Origin: Escherichia phage RB32 | Direction: 5' to 3' (one strand) | Length of the DNA stretch: 64,000 nucleotides | Sequence record: NC_008515.1 | Shown: one piece after another, positions 11,416-42,191 of the stretch | How positions within the stretch are numbered: position 1 is the stretch's first letter | Layout: every line of letters begins with the position of its first letter | Notes under the pieces: generated by a model | Database searches by the model: none | Told to the model about the DNA's origin: nothing | What the model saw: only the letters and a program-made list of their open reading frames with translations | Program-made: the position numbers and the translations under genes

Positions 11416-11455
11416 GTCCCATCTCCATATCAATTAAGTCATTTATCGTTGGTTC

Positions 11456-11485
11456 ATTATATACTGTTTCTTCATCAGTGTAAAC
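11456..11485 (-). promoter_or_regulatory. T4-type early promoter (-35 GTTTAC, 18-nt spacer, -10 TATAAT)
   Basis: Minus-strand GTTTACACTGATGAAGAAACAGTATATAAT upstream of the 10930..11415 gene. Confidence 0.5.
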
Positions 11486-11710
11486 CGGTTCTTCCGGCTC
11501 TGGCTCTACAGTTTCCCATCTAGCCGCCCACCAGGGTTTAACCCCGAAGCTTATTAAGTTCTTCATAATCAATCCAGGATTCTAGTCCTGATGGCAAATC
11601 AGATTCAATTTCCCAAAGAAGTTCTTCAATTTTCTGAAGACGATCTAATTCTTCAGCTGGAATAGTAACCATTGATGGAGTTCTTGATACACTAATATCG
11701 TAAATCATAT

Positions 11711-11926
11711 TTACCCCAGTTTAACCATGCAATCGCCGTATTTCCACTTAGAAATAGACTTTTCGCCATTAGAATAATAAACTTCGAGTTTAGCACGGTT
11801 ATTTTTAATTTGAATAATCTTTGCTGTCATCAAAGTTCCATACCCATAGTAAACTGCAACTTCATCACCTACATATACCGCGCTTCCGCGGTAATCATGG
11901 ATATAATCAGTTCCTTCGAGCATCAT
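11711..11926 (-). CDS. Hypothetical small protein
   Basis: 71-aa ORF; start overlaps nrdC stop. Confidence 0.5.
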   Translation of the reverse strand: MMLEGTDYIHDYRGSAVYVGDEVAVYYGYGTLMTAKIIQIKNNRAKLEVYYSNGEKSISKWKYGDCMVKLG

Positions 11927-12186
11927 TTAAAGTATTCCCGCAATTGGTCAAATCCACCAATATAACTTCCATCAGGAGCAAATACCTGAGGCATTGTCAA
12001 GCCGATTTGAGTATCACGACCTAGTTTCGTCAGAAGCTCAGCAATTTTCTCATCATCAAAAACACCTTTTTCCGGCATAATGTTGATAAATTCAAACGGC
12101 TGTTTCTTCACGGTCAAAAGACGTTTTGCATTATCACAATACACGCATTTATGAATGTTGCTATCATAACCATATACTTTAAACAT
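11923..12186 (-). CDS. nrdC: Thioredoxin/glutaredoxin NrdC
   Basis: 87 aa with CVYC redox motif (MFKVYGYDSNIHKCVYCDNAKRLL); matches T4 NrdC as recalled. Confidence 0.9.
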   Translation of the reverse strand: MFKVYGYDSNIHKCVYCDNAKRLLTVKKQPFEFINIMPEKGVFDDEKIAELLTKLGRDTQIGLTMPQVFAPDGSYIGGFDQLREYFK

Positions 12187-12187
12187 A

Positions 12188-12430
12188 TTATTCCTTAATT
12201 CCTAGTACTTGTTTAAAAGTCTCGTCGTAATCAAGACTTTGGCCCGTTTGTTCTTTATATTTGTATATAATATCACTTACTTCTGATAGCATATTTTTAT
12301 ATGAACGAGTTAAAGCAGATTTAAGCACGCTGTATCTATCAGGAAATTTACCATGTTCATTATAATAAGCTATTGTTAATTCACGGACTGCCTTTTCAGC
12401 AGTCTCCATATATTCTTTACGCTTGGTCAT
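12188..12430 (-). CDS. Hypothetical small protein (80 aa from [13 protein letters not shown])
   Basis: Non-overlapping part of 127-aa track ORF. Confidence 0.45.
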
Positions 12431-12731
12431 TTTCTTCTCGGTCAAATCGGTGTTTACAATGACGACATTTATAACGAAGATTACTAGTCTGCCAATGGAC
12501 CAATTGCACCTGTTCAGTTCCACATTCAGGGCAATTAGGAACGTTTTTAGAAGCCCTTTCGCGACGTTCAACCATGACCATTACAGAATCCCAATTAACA
12601 GGAGGGCTATAATCATCACAACCATGAATCTTTCCACGCATTTCCAGATCGTCTTCTTCACCAGCCATAATAATTTTAATTAGACTAGAATTACTTGAAG
12701 CTGCAATGTCTTCTAATAGACGCTTTTTCAT
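12417..12731 (-). CDS. Zinc-ribbon protein
   Basis: 104 aa with CPECG..(20)..CRHCKH four-Cys arrangement. Confidence 0.6.
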
Positions 12732-17157: not shown

Positions 17158-17685
17158 TTATGCGAGTACCGTCTTTAACCGTTCTTCAAACTTCCGAAGA
17201 GTATTCTGGCGTTCAGCTCTTTGCTTTTTGTAAGTTTCAATACGCTCTGAAATGAGAGTGTATCGTTCATTTACTGATTCTTTCATAAAATCAGGAATTT
17301 CACGAGAAGCTTTAATCTCATCAAATTTATCAATAACAACTTGCTCTTCAGCAATTAAGTTATCATACATTAAAATATCTTTCTTGATGAACTCAATATC
17401 TTCTTGAGTTACACGAGATAATTTAGATGCTTTATCCTTTTTGTACTGTTCATTAGTATCACGAGACCAGTGTAATGTACGATTTTTATTCGTATTCTTG
17501 TAAATTTCTACAATACCAATCTCATCGATAATAACGATCCAATTCCAACGGGATTTGTAAATTTGTCCTCCATCAACCGTGATTTCACCTCCAATTGAGA
17601 TGTCATTAAAGAACTTGCTTTGTGCTTCAGATTTAAATTTACCATCGTTGTAATTTACCAGGTTGAAAATATCTTTAGCGTTCAT
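17158..17685 (-). CDS. Hypothetical protein with C-terminal charged helix
   Basis: 175-aa ORF immediately downstream of an early promoter. Confidence 0.65.
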   Translation of the reverse strand: MNAKDIFNLVNYNDGKFKSEAQSKFFNDISIGGEITVDGGQIYKSRWNWIVIIDEIGIVEIYKNTNKNRTLHWSRDTNEQYKKDKASKLSRVTQEDIEFIKKDILMYDNLIAEEQVVIDKFDEIKASREIPDFMKESVNERYTLISERIETYKKQRAERQNTLRKFEERLKTVLA

Positions 17686-17713
17686 TTTGTGTTCCTCCGT
17701 AGTTGATAGTTGT

Positions 17714-17743
17714 ATAGTACCACAGAGGAACAGTCTTGTAAAC
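17714..17743 (-). promoter_or_regulatory. T4-type early promoter (-35 GTTTAC, 18-nt spacer, -10 TACTAT)
   Basis: Minus-strand GTTTACAAGACTGTTCCTCTGTGGTACTATACAACTATCAACT. Confidence 0.6.
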
Positions 17744-17745
17744 CA

Positions 17746-18060
17746 CTAAAAGAAACTTCTTTTACAATTTTTTCCACTGAACCATGCGCTCACTGCTTTC
17801 TTAGTCTCAGGAGCAGTGTTATCCATAAACCATTCAAAGGCAGCCTTTTTATGATTCTGGAGGGCTTCTCGGGCTTTAATCTGCTCACGGTCTATTAACA
17901 CTAACATATGAGCCTTTCTTGTCACCAAGGGCTTCTTATGATTTTTTGAATACTCCCAATCATTTGTCCATCGCATCGTTGTTGCGAATTGAAGTACAGC
18001 TTCTTTAATTTTAGTTTCGTAAATTTCACGAGCCTTTGAGTATAACATCATTACCTCCAT
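17746..18060 (-). CDS. Hypothetical protein
   Basis: 104-aa ORF; 3' end abuts the promoter. Confidence 0.5.
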   Translation of the reverse strand: MEVMMLYSKAREIYETKIKEAVLQFATTMRWTNDWEYSKNHKKPLVTRKAHMLVLIDREQIKAREALQNHKKAAFEWFMDNTAPETKKAVSAWFSGKNCKRSFF

Positions 18061-18130
18061 TTACCAGTTTAATTCTAGTCATCTTTTTGATGGCAGTCCA
18101 TATAATCTATTTCTGAACTGCCTTTTTGTC

Positions 18131-18850
18131 TTAGGATTCTTCTAAATGTCTTTTCTGAAAAGTTGATACCATACTACGATACGGTTCATTTGGATATCCG
18201 TGTTTTATAGCTTCCTTTGTAAATTTTCTCCATCCATATTTAGTTTCTTTCCAAAGCTCGAATAATTCATCTTCATACTGCCATATAGTTAAATGAGAAC
18301 GCTTTGCAGCTTTAATTCCATTAATATGCTTTTCTTTTACTGCAGGATTGTTTAGTTTCTTTTTAATAATATTACTAACTTTTCTAACAAAAACTGGGTC
18401 CTTATATCGTTGCGAAGTTTTTATTGAAGTGTTTAATTTAGCTTCCGGCGTGGATGTGACCTCTTTCATCTTTTTCTTCATATGCTGTATATGATTAGGA
18501 TTTTTCCATAAATTTATAGAATGCTTTTTGCATTTTATCCTAGTTTCATCTGCAACCTTTCCTCCTTCACCCCCGTATGACAGGTTAACACAGTTTTTTC
18601 CATATTTCAATTTACCTGCCATGATATATAATATTTCAGCTTGTACCATTTTATCATAATTATCAAAAACTTCTAAAACCGTTTTTGATAATATGTGGTC
18701 ATTTGACACTTTTACACGTTCTATATAATTTCCACTACCAACATACGAATCATTGATGTTATTAGTTATATGTCGACCATAATAGTATTTCTTAATACCT
18801 GTCTTTAAATTTAATATTTCAGTTTTATAGATAGTAAAATATTTTTTCAT
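18131..18850 (-). CDS. GIY-YIG homing endonuclease (seg-like), free-standing
   Basis: 239 aa; YFTIYKTEILNLKTGIKKYYYGRH..YVGSG GIY-YIG motifs; start overlaps upstream gene stop. Confidence 0.8.
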   Translation of the reverse strand: MKKYFTIYKTEILNLKTGIKKYYYGRHITNNINDSYVGSGNYIERVKVSNDHILSKTVLEVFDNYDKMVQAEILYIMAGKLKYGKNCVNLSYGGEGGKVADETRIKCKKHSINLWKNPNHIQHMKKKMKEVTSTPEAKLNTSIKTSQRYKDPVFVRKVSNIIKKKLNNPAVKEKHINGIKAAKRSHLTIWQYEDELFELWKETKYGWRKFTKEAIKHGYPNEPYRSMVSTFQKRHLEES

Positions 18851-24192: not shown

Positions 24193-24405
24193 TCATTTTT
24201 GTCCTGTATTTACTTTATGCCGGTGCACGGCCTTAACTTTATCAAGGTATTTTTCAAAATTTCGCAATCTAGTATAGTCTGCCGGAGATTGGTTGAGCGA
24301 TACTTCTCGACGCAAAGCTGAAATGATATTTCCAACTTCCCTACGAATTTCATCTAATTGAAGCACAGTAAGATTGCGAAGTTGCTTTTCAGTTAATTGT
24401 AGCAT
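24193..24405 (-). CDS. Hypothetical small protein (T4 rI.1 position)
   Basis: 70-aa ORF between rI and tk. Confidence 0.6.
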
Positions 24406-24447
24406 ATATACCCCTTTAGTTAGATAAACCTATTTATAACTTTTGCA

Positions 24448-25029
24448 CTAACCGAGTTTTTTAGTTAATTCATTCCAATGTTTTCTACACAAAGAAACAT
24501 AAATTTCATCACCAATACAGATTTGATTACCTTCTTTAACGGGTGTTCCATCTTCCATTAATCGAGCTGTCATAATAGCTTTTTTACCACAATGACAAAC
24601 TGCCTTTAGTTCAATAAGTTTATCTGCAATCGCCAAAAGTTCTTTAGAACCTTCAAACAATTTTCCAGCGAAATCAGTCCTTAATCCATAAGCCATAACA
24701 GGAACATTATATGTATCAACAATTCGGCTCAATTGATGCACCTGTTCAGTTTTTAAAAACTGGGCTTCATCTACAAATACGCAATGAATATCTTTTTGTG
24801 CTTCAGCCCATTTATAGAACTCGAAAATATCCATATCATCTGTAATAATATTCGCTTCCTGCTTAATTCCAATGCGAGAAACGACTTCACAGACAGAATC
24901 ACGAGTATCAATAGCAGGCTTAAGAACTAATACACTCATTCCACGTTCTTTATAATTGTGTGCAGCAGTCAAAAGAGAAGCAGATTTTCCAGCATTCATT
25001 GCTGCATAAGTAAAAATTAAACTCGCCAT
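24448..25029 (-). CDS. tk: Thymidine kinase
   Basis: 193 aa; P-loop MNAGKSASLL; C-terminal zinc-binding Cys pairs; matches T4 Tk as recalled. Confidence 0.95.
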   Translation of the reverse strand: MASLIFTYAAMNAGKSASLLTAAHNYKERGMSVLVLKPAIDTRDSVCEVVSRIGIKQEANIITDDMDIFEFYKWAEAQKDIHCVFVDEAQFLKTEQVHQLSRIVDTYNVPVMAYGLRTDFAGKLFEGSKELLAIADKLIELKAVCHCGKKAIMTARLMEDGTPVKEGNQICIGDEIYVSLCRKHWNELTKKLG

Positions 25030-25030
25030 C

Positions 25031-25219
25031 TTAGTCCTTAGTTAAATTTTCTAAATATGTTTCTAAATCATTTTCAGCTTTATCGATAGATTTTACTAAT
25101 TCATAATATGTTTCGGCATCTCCATAATCAGAAGATAATTCAAAAGACAAATCCTTTTCTAAACTAATAATTTCACCAACTAAAAATAATATTTCGTTCT
25201 TTTGTTCGCGAGTAATCAT
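25031..25219 (-). CDS. Hypothetical small acidic protein (tk-downstream)
   Basis: 62-aa ORF; paralog-like to the 25216..25401 and 22820..23014 ORFs. Confidence 0.55.
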   Translation of the reverse strand: MITREQKNEILFLVGEIISLEKDLSFELSSDYGDAETYYELVKSIDKAENDLETYLENLTKD

Positions 25220-25401
25220 AAGGAATTTATATAATTAATAAGTTCTTGTTCTTTATTATCGAATTCTTTAGAAAGTTCTTCGTACTCGTTTGCACTAAAA
25301 GGACCGCATTCATTACAAACTTTTTCCAATTCACTATTTTTATCCATAACTTCATGGATAAGAGAAAAGAGTTTGTCTTTTTGTTCTTTGCTTAGGCTCA
25401 T
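25216..25401 (-). CDS. Hypothetical small acidic protein with CNEC motif
   Basis: 61-aa ORF. Confidence 0.55.
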   Translation of the reverse strand: MSLSKEQKDKLFSLIHEVMDKNSELEKVCNECGPFSANEYEELSKEFDNKEQELINYINSL

Positions 25402-25571
25402 ATATTAATTTCCAGAAGTTTTAAAATAATTCGCTTTTGCTTAAATATTTCCATAGTTAAATGATCAGTATCTTTTTGACCAATTCCAATAGCAAAACCT
25501 TTATTAGCAACGAGTTCAATTAAATTATCAAGTTCACGTGACACTTCATATTGTAACTCAGAACTATTCAT
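25398..25571 (-). CDS. Hypothetical small protein, 57 aa
   Basis: Own translation MNSSELQYEVSRELDNLIELVANKGFAIGIGQKDTDHLTMEIFKQKRIILKLLEINI; stop overlaps the next gene's start. Confidence 0.4.
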   Translation of the reverse strand: MNSSELQYEVSRELDNLIELVANKGFAIGIGQKDTDHLTMEIFKQKRIILKLLEINI

Positions 25572-25795
25572 TTCGGTTTACCTTCTTTAACGAAATCTGG
25601 ATAAGGATAAAATCCCGAATAAAATCCTTCACCTTTATGATTGATGCATCCTTTATTAGAACAATAGCACCAATAATCGAAATCACAAGCCATTTCATCA
25701 TTACATAAAGCAAAAACAACCGGCCATTTACACTTTTCACAATGGGCATTTTTAAGAATACTAGTTTGGCTCATAACCATGTAACCTTTAAGCAA
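25568..25795 (-). CDS. Cysteine-rich small protein (probable zinc binding)
   Basis: 75 aa; HCEKCKW..CNDEMACDFDYWCYCSNKGCINH. Confidence 0.55.
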   Translation of the reverse strand: MLKGYMVMSQTSILKNAHCEKCKWPVVFALCNDEMACDFDYWCYCSNKGCINHKGEGFYSGFYPYPDFVKEGKPK

Positions 25796-25998
25796 TATTC
25801 TTCTACATGTTGTTTACGACCTTTCTTATCAATAAAGGTATATTCAACGAATGTTCCAATGTAGTCTTTATCTACATCATGTGGACTATTAATTGGACAT
25901 TTAGTACGACAAATGCGTTCCCATTGACGAATAATTACTGTCTTATTCTTTGGGTCATATGGATGTGGATAATGTATATTCATAATAATGGTTCCCAA
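25771..25998 (-). CDS. Hypothetical small protein
   Basis: 75-aa ORF; overlaps neighbours at both ends so the start is uncertain. Confidence 0.45.
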   Translation of the reverse strand: MGTIIMNIHYPHPYDPKNKTVIIRQWERICRTKCPINSPHDVDKDYIGTFVEYTFIDKKGRKQHVEEYCLKVTWL

Positions 25999-26447
25999 TC
26001 AACAATCACAATTTCTAATTTAGAGGAATATGTATCTAAAATCCCCTCAATAATATCCCAGTTCCCTTTACCTATGCCTGCACCAATCCTAGGCATATAG
26101 ATTGTAGGTTTAGTCAGTTTATTTTCACCAAACTCATTTAATTCTAACATACAATTCATTAAAGCGGAATACTCAAAATTTGGCCCTGGTTGAAATTGAG
26201 TATAAAGATTAAAGCAATACGCTTTATGAGTCCTAAAGTATTTTTCATAGACTGAGTAAGAACCGAGTTTAGTTACATCACCACATTCAGTCTGTAATTT
26301 ATCAGCTTCCAAAATTTTAGGGAAAGCTTTGGTTAATTGACCCGCTACACCTGAACCCATAGTATGAAAACAATTGCATCCATGCGCAATATTTTTACCT
26401 TCAGCGAAAAGGGCGACAATATCGCCCTTGATATATTTTACAATCAT
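25980..26447 (-). CDS. Macro-domain protein (ADP-ribose binding/processing fold)
   Basis: 155 aa; GDIVALFAEGKNIAHGCNCFHTMGSGVAGQL aligns with the macro N-x(6)-G-x-G-V-x-G motif; IYMPRIGAGIGKGNWDI aligns with the P-x-I-[SG]-x-G-x-[YG] diphosphate-binding loop. Confidence 0.65.
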   Translation of the reverse strand: MIVKYIKGDIVALFAEGKNIAHGCNCFHTMGSGVAGQLTKAFPKILEADKLQTECGDVTKLGSYSVYEKYFRTHKAYCFNLYTQFQPGPNFEYSALMNCMLELNEFGENKLTKPTIYMPRIGAGIGKGNWDIIEGILDTYSSKLEIVIVDWEPLL

Positions 26448-26791
26448 CTAGTACTCAATCCTCGATTATAAGAATCTACCAAACGGTCAACCATTGAATG
26501 ACAAGCGGCTTTATCTTTCTCCTCCGCAACTGAACATTCTAAGGTATTCCACTTTTTAGCATATCGTTTTAATAATGTATCGTTTTTGTATCTGCTTGAT
26601 TTATCTCTTTCTCCGTCTTTATATGCATATATTAATTTCTGTGCAAATTCAGCTTGGCATGCTTTATTTTTCCCACAATAATCTGCCGCAGTGCGGTTTA
26701 CATATTCTCTAATTTCAGTATATGATGTATCTGCTGACGCAGAAGCAGAAAATGAAATTAATCCTATACATAAAACCAAAATTTTAGTCAT
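26444..26791 (-). CDS. Secreted/periplasmic Cys-containing protein (signal peptide)
   Basis: 115 aa; N-terminal MTKILVLCIGLISFSASASAD signal-like sequence. Confidence 0.6.
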   Translation of the reverse strand: MTKILVLCIGLISFSASASADTSYTEIREYVNRTAADYCGKNKACQAEFAQKLIYAYKDGERDKSSRYKNDTLLKRYAKKWNTLECSVAEEKDKAACHSMVDRLVDSYNRGLSTR

Positions 26792-27329
26792 TTACTATTT
26801 CCAAAAGTTTATTATTTTTAAGGTAATTAGCCTTTTCTAGGACTTCAGAAGCATATTTAGAACCTGCTTTAACATTCCATCCCGAATTATAAGAGGATAT
26901 TGCTTTTCTTATATCGCCCTTATGTATATTTAACCAATAAGAAAGTTCAATGTACGCCCAGGAAGCTGAATTGGATCGTTTATTCAACATTCTTTTTATT
27001 TCAGCATCGGTCATATTATAACCAAGTTCCTTAACTCTTGCTCGCATAGTAGGCAAATAATTTTGGAACATTCCGTAGGCATGATGCTTTGGTTTAGATT
27101 TTAAATTAACTCCGCCAGAGCTTTCTTGCCATAAAATAGCAGCCATTATATGACCTAATCCGCTCTTGTGGATATTTTTATGTGTTTTATATTTTCCATC
27201 CTTAGAAAATTGTTCCCCGAATTGATACGCGTAACGCATGTTATCGAGTTGGACATTACTGAAAGTATGCTCGGAGCTATGTGCCATCATTGAAATGGCC
27301 AATAGACCAGCGAGTAGTGCTTTTCTCAT
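26784..27329 (-). CDS. Soluble lytic transglycosylase-like protein with signal peptide
   Basis: 181 aa; MRKALLAGLLAISMMAHS signal; AILWQESSGG..AYGMFQ resembles the SLT catalytic E-S / GLMQ motifs. Confidence 0.65.
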   Translation of the reverse strand: MRKALLAGLLAISMMAHSSEHTFSNVQLDNMRYAYQFGEQFSKDGKYKTHKNIHKSGLGHIMAAILWQESSGGVNLKSKPKHHAYGMFQNYLPTMRARVKELGYNMTDAEIKRMLNKRSNSASWAYIELSYWLNIHKGDIRKAISSYNSGWNVKAGSKYASEVLEKANYLKNNKLLEIVND

Positions 27330-27336
27330 GCTTACC

Positions 27337-27798
27337 TCATTGAGTTTTAATTACTGCTTTAGAAGCCTTTCCTGGTAAACGACGACTATTGATAATTGCC
27401 ATCCTGCACTGAAGTGACGGGTCTTTGAACTTCGCATTAGGTTTACAAACTGTAAATCCAAGCCAAAGATTTCCATCTGTGATTTCTAAACGTCCAGGAC
27501 GATATTCAACCCCATCAATAAAATCCTCGTCAATGTCAGGACGCGGAGGCATACTCAGGAATTCATTAACTTCTAAAACATGGTCTTTTATTTTATGGAA
27601 TAATTCAAAAACGTATGTCTCATCAATCTCCCGTTGAATTGCGCGATCAAGAAGATGCTGAGAATATTTTAGATGAAACGATGAGACCCCTGCTGCTTTT
27701 GATGCCTCACGAATCTCATTGTTAATTTGACGAAACTCCGACTCAAAGTGACGACGAAGCTTATTTCGACGGATAAAAACTTCTGTATTGATAGTCAT
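27337..27798 (-). CDS. regB: Sequence-specific endoribonuclease RegB
   Basis: 153 aa; MTINTEVFIRRNKLRRHFESEFRQINNEIREASKAAG..; near-identical to T4 RegB as recalled. Confidence 0.9.
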   Translation of the reverse strand: MTINTEVFIRRNKLRRHFESEFRQINNEIREASKAAGVSSFHLKYSQHLLDRAIQREIDETYVFELFHKIKDHVLEVNEFLSMPPRPDIDEDFIDGVEYRPGRLEITDGNLWLGFTVCKPNAKFKDPSLQCRMAIINSRRLPGKASKAVIKTQ

Positions 27799-27823
27799 GT
27801 TATTCTCCTCTTAACTGATAGAA

Positions 27824-27853
27824 AAATTATACCACAGTCAAGAGGAAAAGTAA
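27824..27853 (-). promoter_or_regulatory. T4-type early promoter (-35 GTTTAC, 18-nt spacer, -10 TATAAT) for regB
   Basis: Minus-strand GTTTACTTTTCCTCTTGACTGTGGTATAATTTTTC. Confidence 0.65.
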
Positions 27854-27857
27854 ACAA

Positions 27858-28136
27858 TTATTCTTTAAATCTAATCAATTTATTCATAGACTTTGAAACT
27901 TCTGCACGAACCTCATGTAGATTTTTGAGCTGTTCAAGACGCTGCGTATAGTAAGCAATTTCATCTTCTTCGAGACAGTCCTGTGAATCTTCTTTAAGAT
28001 AACGTGTATAGTCCTGAAAAGCGTTACGAACTACTTCCTGGAAATCATCAAGACTTTGAATTTTCTTAGTAGCAGCAGATACATGACGAGGGGCAGTATA
28101 ATACTCATAACCAAACCCTGCGCTTAATTGAGCCAT
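27858..28136 (-). CDS. Hypothetical protein (92 aa from MAQLSAG; T4 vs.3 position)
   Basis: Trimmed from 106-aa track ORF so that it abuts the upstream gene. Confidence 0.55.
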
Positions 28137-28402
28137 TAGTATTTTTCCTCTGGTTGGAACACTGCACGACAAGCCCACATACTGGCTTCTTTGAGTTTCG
28201 TTTTAGCAATAGTTAACTGATCGAGGCTTTCGGCGTAATTCTTCACGAGTTCATCATCTTCACAATTATCTAGTGCTTCCCAGAATTCATCATACAAAGC
28301 ATCAAAGATAAGTCCTAAACGAACTTCAGCATCTTTGATAGCATTCACTTTACTGATTTTATCGTCAGTATGTGGCTTATAACCTTTAATGTCTTCAATC
28401 AT
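28136..28402 (-). CDS. Hypothetical small protein at T4 vs.4 position; possible Acb2-family cyclic-oligonucleotide sponge (positional inference only)
   Basis: 88-100 aa ORF, second gene upstream of regB; I cannot confirm sequence similarity from memory. Confidence 0.5.
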
Positions 28403-28616
28403 ATTTGACTTCCTCACCAGTACATAAATCGTATTCAACTAAACGAATAGGTTCATGAATGCCATATCCCTGAACAGAAATTTCTGTCGTAGGATAAATT
28501 CCGTCAATATCACCCATATTCCACGCTTCATTAAATTGCTGTTCGCCTGAATTACTAAACCACTCGGCGAAAGCATTTAGAACATCTTTAGAACCTTCAA
28601 TAATTATCTTTGCCAT
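28395..28616 (-). CDS. Hypothetical small protein (T4 vs.5 position)
   Basis: 73-aa ORF. Confidence 0.55.
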   Translation of the reverse strand: MAKIIIEGSKDVLNAFAEWFSNSGEQQFNEAWNMGDIDGIYPTTEISVQGYGIHEPIRLVEYDLCTGEEVKYD

Positions 28617-28978
28617 TACAAACTCTCGGTGAAGGTACGAGCGATAACGTCGCGCTGCTGTTCCGGAGTCAGAGAGTTAAAGCGAACTGCATAACCGGAT
28701 ACACGGATGGTCAGCTGCGGATATTTTTCCGGATGCTTAACTGCATCTTCCAGAGTTTCACGACGCAGAACGTTAACGTTCAGGTGTTGACCACCTTCAA
28801 TTTTAACTGTAGGCTGTGGCTCAATTTCAATTTCACGGGCATGCAAACCATAGAAAATTTCTGGGTCTACAAAAGAGTCCTCTTTAAAGGTTTTAGAAAC
28901 GATAATTCGTGCTTGAATACCATCTTCAAAATAAATAGTACCTTTATGTGTGCCTTCAAGAATTTGATATGCTTTCAT
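28616..28978 (-). CDS. Autonomous glycyl-radical cofactor (GrcA/YfiD-like)
   Basis: 120 aa; C-terminal [25 protein letters not shown] glycyl-radical motif. Confidence 0.8.
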
Positions 28979-28985
28979 ATAAACC

Positions 28986-29315
28986 TCAATTAGAAAATAA
29001 ATTTATCCAAGATTGTTCTTTAATTAAAAATGGCTCAGAATCATATGCCATTAAACTTTGCGTAATTAATCCTTTAAAAGGTCCATCAATAAATTCCATG
29101 GTAAAATATGGAATTTTATTCATTAGCCGTGCATTAGGAGCCGTGCACAAAACTCTGCATCCTTTGAATACACCTTTTTGTAATTTGTATTGCTTGGGAT
29201 AAAATTCGCTCAAAATGTTATTATTTGCTAAAATTTCAAAATGATTCACCAATTTATTTTTAATAGTTTTTGGCGAAAAATAAAGATATTCGAAAAGCTG
29301 AGTGTCTGTCATCAT
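28986..29315 (-). CDS. Hypothetical protein (109 aa from MMTDTQ)
   Basis: Trimmed from 126-aa track ORF. Confidence 0.5.
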
Positions 29316-29851
29316 TGCATTCCGATTACGAAAAACTGTGGACGAGTAATACCACCAATACAACATTTAATATTACAGCAGCAGTGTACAGTGTCAATAT
29401 GGACACTATAAATCTTATCCATATCAGGAGATTTGACGGGCTCATCAATTATATACAAAATTCGCGAAAGCGATAAACCTCTGAACTTGCTTCCTTTATT
29501 ACCAATAAAACTGCGCACAGAATCAGTAAATAAACGAAAACGTATATCATCATTAGAATAACGCGAAAATTCCTTTTTAATGTTATTTGCAGAAATTTTA
29601 GCGTAAGCTGAAGTATTAGAAAGAACAATAACTGTTCCGCCATCATACAACCAATTAGCAGCAAAGTTAGTCACAGCAATTGATTTACCGGATTGACGTC
29701 CACCATCTAGTCGAAGTGTGCAATACTGTTTAAGTAAGTCTTCAAATGGTGGAATATAATCGTTTTTACAAATTTCTTCTACTCTAGCATCAGAATGGTG
29801 TGTAAAAGCATTCATCAGGGATAGATAAGGACCAGTTAAAAATGTTCTCAT
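29312..29851 (-). CDS. Small P-loop NTPase (179 aa from MRTFLTGPY)
   Basis: Walker A DGGRQSGKS, Walker B-like ILYIIDEP; start chosen at the Met with GAGAGA Shine-Dalgarno (track start 29899 has none). Confidence 0.6.
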   Translation of the reverse strand: MRTFLTGPYLSLMNAFTHHSDARVEEICKNDYIPPFEDLLKQYCTLRLDGGRQSGKSIAVTNFAANWLYDGGTVIVLSNTSAYAKISANNIKKEFSRYSNDDIRFRLFTDSVRSFIGNKGSKFRGLSLSRILYIIDEPVKSPDMDKIYSVHIDTVHCCCNIKCCIGGITRPQFFVIGMQ

Positions 29852-30004
29852 TTTATTCTCTCTAGGTTTGGGCCATTCCATGGCGCATGAATTGTCCATT
29901 TCTGTATTTACCCATTACCGCACTTGGGCTCGACCTTATTACAGGTTGGCGGGAATCCCTCACAGAATCATGAGGTCCAGCTTGTTCCCATATTTCTTAT
30001 TTGC

Positions 30005-30478
30005 TTATTTGAATGATTTAACGTACTGAATAGAACCTTTACTATTCACGAAAGCGATTTTACCATTTTTATTATACATTGTAGCAGTACGTTGATAGCC
30101 ATAAGTTTGTTTACCAGATTGATAACCAACTAATGCGAAATTATCTTCACCCATTTTATTCTGTTTAGCGCGAATACGTTCATGACCATGTGCCATAAGA
30201 ACCTTAGCATCACCGGTTGCAATGGATCGACGAGTTTTTTCATCTTCAACTGTATTAACAAAGTCGTCAAATGAATCAAATTTAGCATGAGATTTATTAT
30301 ACAGTTTTCCATCTACTGCATAATTATATCCCTGTACATCCATCTCAACTTCTGTACCATCATCCAGTACAGCAGTGATTTTCTGTCCTTTTTTAAATTT
30401 CAAAAGATCAGTAAAAGATTCAGCAATAATTTGAGAATTAATAGCTGCTTCAGTAATAAATTCTTGATATGTTTTCAT
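30005..30478 (-). CDS. Internal head protein (IP family) with capsid-targeting N-terminus
   Basis: 157 aa; starts MKTYQEFITEAA, the T4 IP capsid-targeting sequence with the protease-type site after Glu; own early promoter upstream. Confidence 0.75.
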   Translation of the reverse strand: MKTYQEFITEAAINSQIIAESFTDLLKFKKGQKITAVLDDGTEVEMDVQGYNYAVDGKLYNKSHAKFDSFDDFVNTVEDEKTRRSIATGDAKVLMAHGHERIRAKQNKMGEDNFALVGYQSGKQTYGYQRTATMYNKNGKIAFVNSKGSIQYVKSFK

Positions 30479-30572: not shown

Positions 30573-31545
<973 letters not shown>

Positions 31546-35169: not shown

Positions 35170-35481
35170 CTTGCGGCAACCTTGTCGGGGTTCCACCTGC
35201 TAAGGCAAGTGTTTGTACGAAACGCCGGGATTCGAACCCGGTTATTAAGCAGTTGACGCTACTCAATATTTTTAAAAGGCCATATCTCGACCATATCCGA
35301 ACGTTCCGTCAAAAACGCTACTCGGCTTACGGCAAAGATATTTCCTCGAATCGATAATTCGGTGCGCCGTTTCTGCTGTGATGTAAGAGGGCATCAACAA
35401 ATCATAAAGATTTATTAACACAATTCCTTACTCAGGGAACATCAGTCCGACGACTTACCGGTAGCGACCCGGTTTCTTGTT
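35170..35481 (-). ncRNA. Non-coding region with a tRNA-like T-arm; candidate small stable RNA(s) as in the T4 tRNA region
   Basis: No credible ORF; CCGGGTTCGAATCCCGG T-arm-like element and flanking stems; bounded by tRNA-Arg and a terminator. Confidence 0.35.
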
Positions 35482-35558
<77 letters not shown>

Positions 35559-35561
35559 TAA

Positions 35562-36227
35562 TTAAAATTTCATTTTTCGACCTTTAAACCATCCTTCTGG
35601 AATTGGGTCAGTTTTCTTAATACGTTTAGAAACTTTTTCATCTAATGAATGAATCCACATCATACCAAATTGGGAATTCTTTTCGCCCTGTTGGTGTTTA
35701 TTTCTGGCGTGAGATTCTTTCATTTTATTAATAGTTTCAGGAGTATGATGCTTATTTAAAAATCTGCTATTATTTAAAAATTTTTCCCTGTATTCAGGAG
35801 TTGACCACAAGCGTTTAAATACATTTGAACCATGTTTACGATATTTTTCTTGAAGTAAAATATCATTTTTAAAACGTGACTTAAACGATTTAGCTCCTTT
35901 TAAACTAGCGTCTTTCTTCTGGTTTAGCATCCTAGGAATATTTATATGGTCCCATCCACCTTCACCACCAAGTTTTAAATTATACACATCTGGTCTATTT
36001 AAAAACTCTTCTGTGACAATATTTTTCTCGGCTTCAAGCATAGATTCTTTATCATCAAAATACTCTAATATTTCTTTAGAAAAATTTTCTATACCATATT
36101 TATCTTGGGCTCTTTTTAATAATTTACCAGAACCCATATATCCATCATCTAAATTTTCGGTAGAATGCACACCAATATAAATTTTATTATTAATTTTATT
36201 TGTTATTTTATAAGTGTAATGGAACAT
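35562..36227 (-). CDS. segB: GIY-YIG homing endonuclease SegB
   Basis: 221 aa; YTYKITNKINNKIYIGVHST..YMGSG GIY-YIG motifs; located inside the tRNA cluster as in T4. Confidence 0.85.
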   Translation of the reverse strand: MFHYTYKITNKINNKIYIGVHSTENLDDGYMGSGKLLKRAQDKYGIENFSKEILEYFDDKESMLEAEKNIVTEEFLNRPDVYNLKLGGEGGWDHINIPRMLNQKKDASLKGAKSFKSRFKNDILLQEKYRKHGSNVFKRLWSTPEYREKFLNNSRFLNKHHTPETINKMKESHARNKHQQGEKNSQFGMMWIHSLDEKVSKRIKKTDPIPEGWFKGRKMKF

Positions 36228-36268
36228 AAATATCTCCTATTTCTAAGAGTATTTATGTTCCCAAAATA

Positions 36269-36340
36269 TGGCCCTGGGTGGAATTGAACCACCATCTGGC
36301 GATTATGAGTCGCTTGCTTGAACCTTCCAGCTACAGGGCC
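36269..36340 (-). tRNA. tRNA-Ile: tRNA with CAU anticodon (Ile2-type or Met)
   Basis: Cloverleaf: acceptor GGCCCTG/CAGGGCC, anticodon loop CTCATAA, T arm GGTGG-TTCAATT-CCACC; T4 carries a CAU tRNA-Ile at this position. Confidence 0.7.
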
Positions 36341-36341
36341 T

Positions 36342-36417
36342 TGGTGCTGATTGACGGAATCGAACCGCCGACCTTCTCATTACAAGTGAGTTGCTCTACC
36401 TACTGAGCTAAATCAGC
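36342..36417 (-). tRNA. tRNA-Thr: tRNA-Thr (anticodon UGU)
   Basis: Acceptor GCTGATT/AATCAGC, D arm GCTC..GAGC, anticodon loop CTTGTAA, encoded ACCA. Confidence 0.8.
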
Positions 36418-36419
36418 AA

Positions 36420-36506
36420 CGGAGGCGATAGGATTTGAACCTATGAGTCGCCGGAGCGACTGCCGGTTTTCAAGACCGGTGCATTAAACCACTCTGCCAC
36501 GCCTCC
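36420..36506 (-). tRNA. tRNA-Ser: tRNA-Ser (anticodon UGA), long variable arm
   Basis: Acceptor GGAGGCG/CGCCTCC, anticodon stem-loop CCGGT-CTTGAAA-ACCGG, long extra arm, T loop TTCAAAT. Confidence 0.8.
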
Positions 36507-36508
36507 AG

Positions 36509-36582
36509 TCTCCATACAAGGATTTGAACCTTGGACCTCCTGATCCCAAATCAGGCGCTCTACCAAACTGAGCTACACGGAG
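36509..36582 (-). tRNA. tRNA-Pro: tRNA-Pro (anticodon UGG)
   Basis: Anticodon stem-loop CCTGA-TTTGGGA-TCAGG, D arm TAGCTCAGTTTGGTAGAGC, T arm CAAGG-TTCAAAT-CCTTG. Confidence 0.8.
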
Positions 36583-36592
36583 TAAATTAAAT

Positions 36593-36666
<74 letters not shown>

Positions 36667-36671
36667 AAATT

Positions 36672-36758
36672 TGGTGCGAGAAGTGGGACTCGAACCCACA
36701 AGGAAATCATTCCGCAGCATTTTAAGTGCTGTGCCTTTACCAATTTGACCATTCTCGC
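36672..36758 (-). tRNA. tRNA-Leu: tRNA-Leu (anticodon UAA), long variable arm
   Basis: Acceptor GCGAGAA/TTCTCGC, anticodon stem-loop CAGCA-CTTAAAA-TGCTG, encoded ACCA. Confidence 0.8.
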
Positions 36759-36759
36759 G

Positions 36760-36832
36760 CTGGGAATAAAGGACTCGAACCTTTGCATCTAGCAGTCAAA
36801 GTGCTATGCCTTACCAACTTGGCTAATTCCCA
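36760..36832 (-). tRNA. tRNA-Gln: tRNA-Gln (anticodon UUG)
   Basis: TGGGAATTAGCCAAGTTGGTAAGGCATAGCACTTTGACTGCTAGATGCAAAGGTTCGAGTCCTTTATTCCCA; matches T4 tRNA-Gln as recalled. Confidence 0.85.
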
Positions 36833-41531: not shown

Positions 41532-42191
41532 TTAATTTATTAGACTTCTTAAACGAGCAGAAGTCATAAATGGAAATTTTTCTAAAGTTGGCTTTCGCCA
41601 ATATCTTGGATGACAAGTTGATTTAAAATCAAGAACAATTTTCTTTGCTTCATCAATAGTGTTAACTCCAAAGTTATCTAACATTATTTTCTTTTCTTTT
41701 TCCCACCGTTTATTAGCTAAAGCAGATTGAAGCTTTTTGTTTTTAAATGTGTCATTTTTTCTAGAATGAGTTGTTCCTTGTGTCGGACTCCATCCTCTTC
41801 CTAAAATAAATCCCTCAGGAATTATATCTCCATCATGCAATTTTATACATCTTTTACCATTATTATAATATTTTCGTCCAGTTTGTGTATTTGAAATATT
41901 ATTTGCATGTTTTCTTTTTAACCAACCATAAACTTTATTATTTCTCCTAACATATTTAGTTGAAACCGTCATTTTTATGGCTGCATAAGATAATTTTAAA
42001 GAATTTGGGTGTATTTTTACTAATAGCTGATGTGCAACATAATGCTCTTCTGGAGTTAAATCAACCAAGTTAGAAGCATCATTACTACCGCCTAAACATT
42101 TCGGAATAATATGATGTCTTTCTTTATATCCAGTAAGGGCTCTATTGCGAGCCCTATCAATTAGTGAATTATAAATTTTTTCATAATTCAT
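41532..42191 (-). CDS. HNH homing endonuclease, free-standing, inserted between genes 3 and 2
   Basis: 219 aa from MNYEKIYNS; HNH motif [30 protein letters not shown]; basic C-terminal DNA-binding-like region. Confidence 0.8.

What the first reader, a model, noticed from the sequence alone, without database searches (positions are those of the whole stretch)
25980..26447. Macro-domain protein among small early genes near tk
The 155-aa protein contains GDIVALFAEGKNIAHGCNCFHTMGSGVAGQL and IYMPRIGAGIGKGNWDI, which align position by position with the two hallmark macro-domain loops (N-x(6)-G-x-G-V-x-G-x-[IL] and the P-x-I-[SG]-x-G diphosphate-binding loop). Macro domains bind or hydrolyse ADP-ribose derivatives. 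In a T-even phage this could reverse host ADP-ribosylation-based defence (DarT-like DNA ADP-ribosylation), process ADP-ribose-derived immune signals, or edit the phage's own Alt/Mod ADP-ribosylation marks.
Basis: partly seen in the sequence, partly recalled or inferred. Interest (0 to 1): 0.55.

Follow-up and report, generated by a model that had tools for sequence, protein, structure and literature searches.

The report
Known T4-type anti-DarT macrodomain gene (tk.4/adfM)
This is the phage RB33 copy of T4 gene tk.4, a small ADP-ribose-handling (macro domain) protein long annotated as such and recently shown in T4 to protect the phage from the bacterial DarTG2 defence, so the finding is correct but not new.

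Summary
Window 25980-26447, minus strand, encodes a 155-aa protein containing both quoted peptides. The window is phage RB33 (bases 32120-96119), and the gene is tk.4, 153/155 identical to T4 Tk.4.

The function is already published. Tk.4 was matched to the A1pp/macro domain in 2006, and the T4 reference record says so. A 2025 preprint found tk.4 as the only T4 gene needed on DarTG2 hosts and renamed it adfM.

What this analysis adds:
- Tk.4 lacks the catalytic lysine of DarG, TARG1 and PhiKZ AdfM. It has Gln84 instead, in 118 of 119 relatives.
- SCO6735, a proven thymidine-ADP-ribose DNA hydrolase, has Gln at the same position.
- So does the phage ADPR-1''-phosphate phosphatase Adpp, which is 35% identical to Tk.4.
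- RB33 has no NARP1 partner genes, which argues against the Adpp role.

No biochemistry exists for Tk.4, so the hydrolase mechanism is inferred. Verdict: already known, low interest.

The parts
25980..26447 (-). tk.4 / adfM coding sequence (RB33_115), 155 aa, a single macro domain with no extra domain
26373..26384 (-). Codons for H22-G23-C24-N25. These correspond to SCO6735 H24-V25-C26-N27 and DarG N22. In SCO6735 the Asn locks the catalytic Gln, and the backbone of the residue two positions before it places the water.
   Evidence: Alignments. In the family, N25 is present in 118/119, G23 in 117/119 and H22 in 113/119. Residue roles are taken from PMC9411070.
26334..26357 (-). Codons for G31-S-G33-V-A-G36-Q-L38, the first Gly-rich (phosphate-binding) loop of the macro fold
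   Evidence: G33 is invariant (119/119) and G31 is present in 105/119. The loop aligns with the GxG loop of every reference macrodomain.
26196..26204 (-). Codons for Y82-T83-Q84. Q84 occupies the column of catalytic Lys80 (DarG), Lys84 (TARG1) and Lys78 (PhiKZ AdfM), and of Gln85 in SCO6735.
   Evidence: hhalign probability 98.9%. Profile-to-PDB alignment. Joint alignment. Q in 118/119 relatives.
26058..26093 (-). Codons for P119-R-I-G122-A-G124-I-G-K-G128-N-W130, the second Gly-rich (diphosphate / distal-ribose) loop. G124 corresponds to SCO6735 G128. G126 occupies the TARG1 D125 column.
   Evidence: P119 and G122 are invariant; I121 and G124 are present in 118/119. Alignment.
26444..26447 (-). 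ATGA overlap: the vs stop codon overlaps the tk.4 start codon. A GAGGA stretch lies at 26459-26463, inside vs.
   Evidence: Read directly from the sequence and the ORF coordinates. It suggests translational coupling within one transcription unit, which is an inference.
25980..25983 (-). ATGA overlap: the tk.4 stop codon overlaps the tk.3 start codon
   Evidence: Sequence. Annotated tk.3 at 25771..25983.

Best explanation
The gene is the RB33 orthologue of T4 tk.4, recently renamed adfM (anti-DarT factor, macrodomain). It encodes a free-standing 155-aa macrodomain of the ALC1-like class, the group that includes TARG1, DarG, SCO6735/BT1257 and Poa1p. It is made from the leftward early gene block regB-vs.1-vs-tk.4-tk.3...tk.

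Its most likely job is to act as an orphan antitoxin. When a host DarTG2 system releases DarT2, that toxin ADP-ribosylates thymidines in single-stranded phage DNA. Tk.4 binds the ADP-ribose and hydrolyses the thymine-ribose bond, which restores replication.

The chemistry is probably not DarG's lysine-dependent mechanism. It is more likely the lysine-independent route described for SCO6735. There, Gln (Tk.4 Q84), held in place by Asn (N25), positions the distal ribose, and a backbone-held water attacks.

Shown:
- the ORF, the macro fold and the class assignment;
- orthology to T4 Tk.4;
- the Gln-for-Lys difference;
- absence of a DarT-binding domain.

Shown by others for T4: tk.4 is needed on DarTG2 hosts.

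Inferred:
- that RB33's copy behaves the same way;
- that protection is enzymatic;
- the catalytic mechanism.
For: - Identity and synteny: the window is RB33 32120-96119. The gene is annotated tk.4 between vs and tk.3. It is 153/155 identical to T4 NP_049723.1; the two differences (C55W, T112I) lie outside conserved columns.
- Function in T4: tk.4 was the single significant HIDEN-SEQ hit on DarTG2, and a clean deletion was sensitised.
- DarG is the only NCBIfam and the only PADLOC hit, covering its macro part only.
- Active site: N25 aligns with DarG N22 and SCO6735 N27. Q84 aligns with SCO6735 Q85 and is present in 118/119 relatives.
- SCO6735 has this Gln and cleaves thymidine-linked ADPr on DNA faster than DarG or TARG1. 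Q85A/E abolish activity and N27S nearly abolishes it, and SCO6735 rescues E. coli from DarT.
- Expression: the Tk.4 protein was detected in T2-infected cells.
Against: - No biochemistry exists for any Tk.4 protein. The T4 evidence is a preprint with a genetic phenotype plus a structural overlay. Searches of its text found no active-site analysis, mutants or hydrolase assays for Tk.4.
- Tk.4 lacks the lysine that DarG, TARG1 and the biochemically proven PhiKZ AdfM use.
- It also lacks the longer lysine-bearing 'mobile loop' that the SCO6735 authors consider characteristic of that subclass and important for DNA activity: 7 residues against 12-13.
- Its closest characterised relative by sequence is not a DNA hydrolase. 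It is Adpp, an ADPR-1''-phosphate phosphatase (35% identity, E=3e-23).
- RB33 itself has never been tested.
Confidence: 0.75

Rival explanations
1. Tk.4 is mainly an ADP-ribose-1''-phosphate phosphatase, like yeast Poa1p and phage Adpp. It would remove the 1''-phosphate from the product of RES-type NADases (aRES defence) or from RNA-repair by-products, and so act on a small molecule rather than on DNA.
For: - The Cody homologue, which is 98% identical to the tested Gary Adpp, is 35% identical to Tk.4 (E=3e-23). It shares the Gln, H22, C24, N25 and the second Gly loop.
- Gary Adpp converts ADPR-1P to ADPR in vitro.
- The T4 record and PHROG 335 both say 'phosphatase'.
Against: - Adpp works only as part of a NARP1 operon (Adps-Adpp-Namat). 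RB33 has no detectable Adps or Namat anywhere in its genome (best tblastn E 0.62 and 1.3, while the positive control scores 5e-19).
- tk.4 sits between vs and tk.3, not in such an operon.
- The only phenotype reported for tk.4 is on DarTG2.
- Adpp has a 14-residue loop and YGQ, where Tk.4 has 7 residues and YTQ.
- The 'phosphatase' label is inherited from the old A1pp domain name, not from an assay.
- This activity could still exist as a side activity.
Confidence: 0.12
2. Tk.4 protects without catalysis. It would either bind and block DarT2 directly, or bind ADP-ribosylated DNA, in the way DarG and SCO6735 can inhibit DarT by interaction alone.
For: Catalytically dead SCO6735 Q85A still inhibited DarT in vitro, more strongly than DarG K80A or TARG1 K84A. 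ICP1 AdfB, which is not a macrodomain, counters DarT by direct interaction. Tk.4 lacks the canonical lysine.
Against: - Near-invariance of N25, Q84 and both Gly loops across 119 relatives at 35-97% identity points to a conserved ligand-processing site.
- Tk.4 has no counterpart of DarG's C-terminal DarT-binding domain.
- A phage factor made at early-gene levels would be more effective as an enzyme; this last point is inference.
Confidence: 0.08
3. Tk.4 edits the phage's own ADP-ribosylation marks (Alt, ModA, ModB, including ModB RNAylation), or destroys ADP-ribose-derived immune signals such as Thoeris cADPR isomers or His-ADPR.
For: RB33 encodes modA, modB and alt. SCO6735 and TARG1 also remove Glu/Asp-linked protein ADPr. 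A survey of viral NAD/ADPr systems argued that phage macrodomains mostly target small ADPr derivatives.
Against: - No experimental or contextual link was found. tk.4 is 46 kb from modA/B and 63 kb from alt.
- From general knowledge, Alt/Mod marks are arginine-linked, and no macrodomain is known to cleave that linkage.
- The T4 screen gave tk.4 only for DarTG2 among the systems it describes. Thoeris is not among the systems named in the passages read.
Confidence: 0.05

Closest known systems
T4 Tk.4 / AdfM (NP_049723.1; HIDEN-SEQ preprint 10.1101/2025.11.20.689424)
   Same: 153/155 identical, the same length, and the same position between vs and tk.3. All conserved columns are identical.
   Different: Two substitutions (C55W, T112I). 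RB33 carries two extra small ORFs between tk.2 and tk.3. The anti-DarTG2 phenotype was shown only for T4.
SCO6735 (Streptomyces coelicolor; PDB 5E3B) and BT1257 (PDB 2FG1/2AFC): Gln-type ALC1-like macrodomains
   Different: Only 21-29% identity. Tk.4 lacks the 5-6-residue longer mobile loop carrying K89/K93 (7 against 12-13 residues). It has Gly in place of Val25 and Ser in place of Lys34. SCO6735 is a bacterial chromosomal protein, not a phage one.
DarG antitoxin macrodomain (T. aquaticus 5M31/5M3E, M. tuberculosis 5M3I; NCBIfam NF048014)
   Different: About 20% identity. Catalytic Lys80 is replaced by Gln84. Tk.4 has no C-terminal DarT-binding domain (155 aa against a 338-position model) and no adjacent darT. 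It scores 29 bits against a cut-off of 250.
PhiKZ gp104 'AdfM' (chimallivirus DarG2-like antitoxin, PMC13309987)
   Same: A phage-encoded free-standing macrodomain that counters DarTG2. It was given the same name independently.
   Different: It is a different subclass. PhiKZ AdfM is Lys-type (N23/K78) and close to DarG (E 1e-24 to Mtb DarG). Against Tk.4, only 46 residues align, at 22% identity (E 0.004). PhiKZ AdfM has direct biochemical proof and is imported into the phage nucleus. Tk.4 has neither.
Adpp (Vibrio phage Gary/Cody; NARP1-AP pathway) and yeast Poa1p
   Same: Adpp is the closest characterised relative by sequence (35% identity, E 3e-23). It shares the Gln, H22, C24, N25 and D49. 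Poa1p is a top structural match.
   Different: Adpp sits between Adps and Namat, and RB33 has neither gene. Adpp has a 14-residue loop and YGQ. Its substrate is ADPR-1''-phosphate, not DNA.
Human TARG1 / OARD1 (PDB 4J5R/4J5S)
   Same: Best Foldseek hit (E 6.8e-10). Its loop length is the same as Tk.4's (7 residues). The Thr before the catalytic column is shared. TARG1 also reverses thymidine ADPr.
   Different: The TARG1 catalytic dyad K84/D125 corresponds to Q84/G126 in Tk.4, and TARG1 has Ser where Tk.4 has N25.

Membership tests
Macro domain superfamily (Pfam PF01661) | Score at or above Pfam's gathering cut-off | tested here: met
   28 bits against a cut-off of 22, E=2.2e-6, covering profile positions 2-113 of 118.
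Macro domain superfamily (Pfam PF01661) | Three-layer alpha/beta/alpha macro fold | tested here: met
Macro domain superfamily (Pfam PF01661) | Two Gly-rich ligand loops (GxG after strand 2; P-x-I-G-x-G) | tested here: met
   G33, P119 and G122 are invariant. G124 is present in 118/119 and G31 in 105/119.
ALC1-like macrodomain class (TARG1 / DarG / SCO6735 / Poa1p) | Closest structural and profile neighbours all belong to this class | tested here: met
T4 Tk.4 / AdfM orthologous group | Near-identical sequence in the syntenic vs - tk.4 - tk.3 position of a Tequatrovirus | tested here: met
   153/155 identity. Same neighbours.
T4 Tk.4 / AdfM orthologous group | Loss of the gene sensitises the phage to DarTG2 | not testable with these tools
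   Reported for T4 only. Not tested for RB33.
DarG antitoxin (NCBIfam NF048014, equivalog) | Score at or above the curated cut-off | tested here: not met
   29.4 bits against a cut-off of 250.
DarG antitoxin (NCBIfam NF048014, equivalog) | C-terminal DarT-binding domain | tested here: not met
   The protein is 155 aa and matches only model positions 2-146 of 338 and 2-145 of 329 in PADLOC.
DarG antitoxin (NCBIfam NF048014, equivalog) | Catalytic lysine (Taq K80) | tested here: not met
   Gln84 occupies that column in three independent alignments.
DarG antitoxin (NCBIfam NF048014, equivalog) | Encoded next to a darT toxin gene | tested here: not met
   The neighbours are vs and tk.3.
DarG antitoxin (NCBIfam NF048014, equivalog) | Conserved active-site Asn (Taq N22) | tested here: met
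   N25 aligns with N22 and is present in 118/119 relatives.
SCO6735 / BT1257 subclass (Gln-type thymidine-ADPr hydrolases) | Gln at the catalytic column, locked by the conserved Asn | tested here: met
   Q84 and N25 align with Q85 and N27.
SCO6735 / BT1257 subclass (Gln-type thymidine-ADPr hydrolases) | Mobile loop about five residues longer than in DarG/TARG1, carrying Lys89/Lys93 | tested here: not met
   7 residues in Tk.4 against 12 (SCO6735) and 13 (BT1257). The authors call this loop characteristic of the subclass.
SCO6735 / BT1257 subclass (Gln-type thymidine-ADPr hydrolases) | Hydrolysis of thymidine-linked ADP-ribose on ssDNA | not testable with these tools
   Requires an enzyme assay.
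Adpp (NARP1-AP ADPR-1''-phosphate phosphatase) | Poa1p-like macrodomain sequence | tested here: met
   35% identity, E=3e-23, to Cody gp176, which is 98% identical to Gary Adpp.
Adpp (NARP1-AP ADPR-1''-phosphate phosphatase) | Encoded within a NARP1 operon (Adps and Namat) | tested here: not met
   No Adps or Namat homologue anywhere in RB33. Compare the Cody locus.
Adpp (NARP1-AP ADPR-1''-phosphate phosphatase) | ADPR-1''P phosphatase activity | not testable with these tools
   Requires an LC-MS assay like the one.
PhiKZ-type AdfM (chimallivirus DarG2-like) | Lys-type active site (N23/K78) and close similarity to DarG2 | tested here: not met
   Gln at the Lys column. Only 22% identity over 46 residues to gp104, whereas gp104 hits Mtb DarG at 1e-24.

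The most novel reading that the evidence does not exclude
Tk.4-type proteins would be a distinct third active-site design within the ALC1-like macrodomains: a SCO6735-like catalytic Gln combined with the short loop of TARG1/DarG. On this reading they act as broad ADP-ribose erasers. They would remove DarT2's thymine-ADP-ribose from phage DNA by lysine-independent chemistry, and would also dephosphorylate ADPR-1''-phosphate as their relative Adpp does. One small early protein would then blunt two unrelated NAD-based defences.
Probability: 0.15. Interest if true: 0.5.

Novelty: already known. Interest (0 to 1): 0.2.

Why it matters
The gene matters as part of the T-even phages' set of counter-defences against ADP-ribosylating toxins. 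That set includes AdfA (61.2), AdfN (30.3, against DarTG1) and Tk.4/AdfM (against DarTG2). RB33 has homologues of all three.

This was already established for T4, and the macro annotation dates back to 2006. What remains open, and what the residue analysis sharpens, is how Tk.4 works:
- It lacks the lysine on which DarG, TARG1 and PhiKZ AdfM depend.
- It shares a glutamine with both a DNA de-ADP-ribosylase (SCO6735) and a small-molecule phosphatase (Adpp).

Its substrate range and chemistry therefore need a direct assay. The two phage proteins currently both named AdfM should not be treated as one family.

Tried and rejected
- 'Catalytically dead binder because the DarG/TARG1 lysine is missing.' I considered this. 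I set it aside as the main reading once SCO6735 showed that a Gln at this position supports fast thymidine-ADPr hydrolysis. It is kept as a low-probability rival.
- 'Adpp-type phosphatase feeding NARP1.' A whole-genome tblastn of RB33 with Cody Adps and Namat found nothing, while the positive control worked.
- The papers on AdfN, CmdTAC and ICP1 AdfB were checked for tk.4 or a T4 macrodomain. They contain nothing relevant, and AdfB is described as acting on DarT by direct interaction, not as a macrodomain.
- The survey of viral NAD/ADPr systems never names Tk.4.
- A literature search for 'AdfM' was swamped by unrelated strings. Among the 15 papers listed it showed only the PhiKZ paper, which was already known.
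- The promoter/terminator scan was uninformative: 23 promoter-like sites against 24.1 expected, and 4 terminator-like sites against 2.9.
- Two literature calls failed because a search term was too short.
- The large representative-protein search, the metagenome and genome locus scans, and the cluster look-ups were not used. The answer did not depend on them.

Full report
**1. Observation.** The ORF listing returns an ATG-initiated ORF of 155 aa at 25980..26447 on the minus strand. The first loop reads N25-x5-G31-S-G33-V-A-G36-Q-L38, so the typed pattern N-x(6)-G is off by one. The second reads P119-R-I-G122-A-G124, as stated. The ORFs on the plus strand in this interval (97 aa and 35 aa) are only mechanical ORFs and I found no support for them. 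No terminator-like site was found on the minus strand in the region scanned (24300-30100). The start ATG overlaps the stop of the upstream gene as ATGA (26444-26447). The stop overlaps the ATG of the downstream gene in the same way (25980-25983).

**2. What the window is.** The 468-nt gene is 100% identical to phage RB33 (KM607001.1). The whole 64-kb window is an exact substring of that genome, bases 32120-96119. RB33 is a Tequatrovirus. The gene is RB33_115, noted as 'tk.4'. It lies in the leftward block regB, vs.1, vs, tk.4, tk.3, two small ORFs, tk.2, tk.1, tk.

The protein is 153/155 identical to reference T4 Tk.4 (NP_049723.1). The T4 record already reads 'phosphatase; Tk.4; contains A1pp phosphatase motif'. 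Many related GenBank records call it 'macro domain protein' or 'Poa1p-like family protein'.

**3. Is it a macro domain?** Yes, by every test.
- Pfam Macro: 28 bits against a gathering score of 22.
- PHROG 335: E=1e-65.
- Single-sequence hits to solved macrodomains: BT1257 6.5e-10, Poa1p 2e-6, TARG1 2e-4, DarG 4e-4.
- A 64-sequence family profile raises these to 7e-18 (BT1257), 3e-15 (TARG1), 4e-14 (Poa1p), 5e-14 (SCO6735) and 3e-13 (Mtb DarG).
- An AlphaFold2 model built on that alignment has mean pLDDT 96.0 and pTM 0.91.
- Foldseek against the PDB puts TARG1, Poa1p (TM 0.81), BT1257 and DarG (TM 0.76) on top.

**4. What is already known.** Nolan et al. 2006 matched tk.4 orthologues to the A1pp domain. 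The HIDEN-SEQ preprint of November 2025 infected a DarTG2-expressing host with a T4 transposon library. It found tk.4 as the single significant hit, showed that a clean tk.4 deletion is sensitised to DarTG2, overlaid the predicted structure on Mtb DarG, and renamed the gene adfM. Term searches of its text found no biochemistry, point mutants or active-site discussion for Tk.4. A T2 study detected the Tk.4 protein in infected cells.

Independently, a 2026 Cell Reports paper gave the same name, AdfM, to PhiKZ gp104.

**5. Relation to DarG at residue level.** DarG is the only NCBIfam hit and the only PADLOC hit. The match covers only the N-terminal macro part of the model and scores 29 bits against a cut-off of 250. 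I recovered DarG macrodomain sequences from PDB alignments of PhiKZ gp104. I then aligned them as a profile against the Tk.4 family: hhalign probability 98.9%, E=2e-17.
- DarG N22 aligns with Tk.4 N25.
- Catalytic K80, in the motif F-P-T-K, aligns with Q84, in the motif L-Y-T-Q.
- The profile-to-PDB alignment puts TARG1 K84 in the same column.
- A nine-sequence joint alignment does the same.
- Across 119 homologues of at least 130 aa, the column is Gln in 118 and Lys in one. N25 is present in 118, G23 in 117 and H22 in 113.

Tk.4 is therefore not a DarG-type (Lys) enzyme, and it is not in the same subclass as PhiKZ AdfM. Against PhiKZ AdfM it aligns over only 46 residues at 22% identity.

**6. 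Does the missing lysine argue against DNA de-ADP-ribosylation?** No. SCO6735 from Streptomyces coelicolor is 54% identical to BT1257, Tk.4's best solved relative. It has Gln85 at exactly this position and cleaves thymidine-linked ADP-ribose from ssDNA faster than DarG or TARG1.
- It is specific for dT-ADPr over dG-ADPr, and it rescues E. coli from DarT.
- Q85A and Q85E abolish activity, and N27S nearly does.
- The authors propose that Gln positions the distal ribose while a water held by the backbone of Val25 attacks.
- A later synthetic-substrate study confirmed the activity.

In Tk.4, H22-G23-C24-N25 aligns with H24-V25-C26-N27, Q84 with Q85, and G124 with G128.

One defining feature of the SCO6735 subclass is missing. 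Its mobile loop is 12-13 residues and carries Lys89/Lys93. In Tk.4 the loop is 7 residues, the same length as in TARG1, DarG and PhiKZ AdfM. Tk.4 thus combines a Gln-type site with a short loop.

**7. The main rival.** A January 2026 preprint showed that a Poa1p-like macro protein, Adpp, from Vibrio phage Gary dephosphorylates ADPR-1''-phosphate. That compound is the product of the aRES NADase, and its dephosphorylation lets the phage NARP1 pathway rebuild NAD+.
- The Cody orthologue is 98% identical to Gary's and lies between Adps and Namat.
- It is 35% identical to Tk.4 (E=3e-23) and shares the Gln.
- By sequence it is Tk.4's closest characterised relative.
- RB33, however, has no Adps or Namat homologue (tblastn best E 0.62 and 1.3; the Adpp control finds tk.4 at 5e-19).
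- tk.4 is also RB33's only macro gene.

Without NARP1 the phosphatase step has no obvious pay-off, and the reported phenotype is on DarTG2. I therefore rank this as a possible side activity, not the main function.

**8. Other readings.** Non-catalytic inhibition of DarT2 is possible, because SCO6735 Q85A still inhibits DarT. The strong conservation of the catalytic columns argues for an enzyme. Editing of Alt/ModA/ModB marks has no support. RB33 encodes these transferases far from tk.4, and from general knowledge their arginine linkage is not a known macrodomain substrate. Nothing links Tk.4 to Thoeris.

**9. Distribution.** tblastn finds homologues in 2,749 of 50,697 phage records. These are mostly Escherichia, Klebsiella, Salmonella, Pseudomonas, Vibrio, Shigella, Acinetobacter and Aeromonas phages. 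In T4-like phages the gene usually sits next to vs. The protein database search gave 204 clusters at E <= 1e-3, a few of them labelled as bacterial MAG proteins.

**10. Verdict.** The feature is an already annotated gene that has been functionally assigned in T4. The added value here is:
- the subclass assignment: Gln-type with a short loop, not DarG-type, and not the same family as PhiKZ AdfM;
- the exclusion of a NARP1-linked role in RB33;
- the note that the hydrolase mechanism remains unproven.

Interest is low, at 0.2. The most novel reading not excluded, a dual DNA and small-molecule eraser with lysine-independent chemistry, has modest probability.

Noticed in passing
window 31105-31545 (minus strand): nudE (e.1), a Nudix hydrolase gene, lies about 4.7 kb upstream of tk.4 on the same strand. 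From general knowledge, T4 NudE hydrolyses ADP-ribose, so it could dispose of the free ADP-ribose that Tk.4 would release. No functional link was tested.
   Followed up: no
window 26444-26791 (minus strand): The protein annotated as 'valyl-tRNA synthetase modifier' (Vs) begins MTKILVLCIGLISFSASASA-D..., which looks like a Sec signal peptide with an A-x-A cleavage site. That is odd for a protein said to bind a cytoplasmic synthetase. The next gene, vs.1, also has a signal-like N-terminus. The HIDEN-SEQ preprint reports vs as the most depleted T4 gene in minimal medium.
   Followed up: no
window 25398-25780 (minus strand): RB33 has two small ORFs (RB33_112, 57 aa, and RB33_113, 70 aa) between tk.2 and tk.3 that are absent from reference T4, and its tk.2 is shorter (132 nt against 186 nt). 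RB33_113 is Cys-rich (CEKC...C...C..C.C...C), which resembles a zinc-ribbon. The content of small ORFs right next to tk.4 varies between close relatives.
   Followed up: partly
L003:12518-13006 (PhiKZ gp104) compared with window 25980-26447: Two unrelated groups gave the name AdfM to two different macrodomain subclasses: Lys-type PhiKZ gp104 and Gln-type T4 Tk.4. The two align over only 46 residues at 22% identity. Annotation transfer between them would mislead.
   Followed up: yes
L002:1501-1968 (T4_ev151) compared with L009:3423-3890 (T4 reference): The record named 'T4_ev151' carries a Tk.4 that is 149/155 identical to RB33's and differs in a block at residues 15-19 (LQGNI instead of AEGKN). 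Reference T4 has the RB33 version. This suggests either mosaic exchange in this segment or that the isolate is not a simple T4 derivative.
   Followed up: no
window 18131-18850, 35562-36227, 41532-42191 (minus strand): Three homing-endonuclease-type genes (two annotated 'site-specific intron-like DNA endonuclease', plus segB) are scattered through the window. segB is inserted within the tRNA cluster.
   Followed up: no
window 35216-36832 (minus strand): A cluster of eight tRNA genes (Arg, Met, Thr, Ser, Pro, Gly, Leu, Gln) and the small RNAs rnaC and rnaD, as annotated in RB33. Not re-predicted here.
   Followed up: no
window 26409-26429 (plus strand, antisense to tk.4): An 8-bp GC-rich hairpin followed by a T-run (AAGGGCGACAATATCGCCCTT GATATATTTT) lies inside tk.4 on the opposite strand. 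The number of terminator-like sites in the region is not above the shuffled expectation (4 against 2.9), so it is probably chance.
   Followed up: no
RB33 genome outside the window: 17626-18246 (61.2), 126392-126850 (30.3), 11438-12660 (modA/modB), 121499-123592 (alt): RB33 also carries homologues of the other two T-even anti-DarT factors (61.2 = AdfA, 30.3 = AdfN) and all three phage ADP-ribosyltransferases. It therefore has the full T4 set of ADP-ribosylation writers and erasers.
   Followed up: partly
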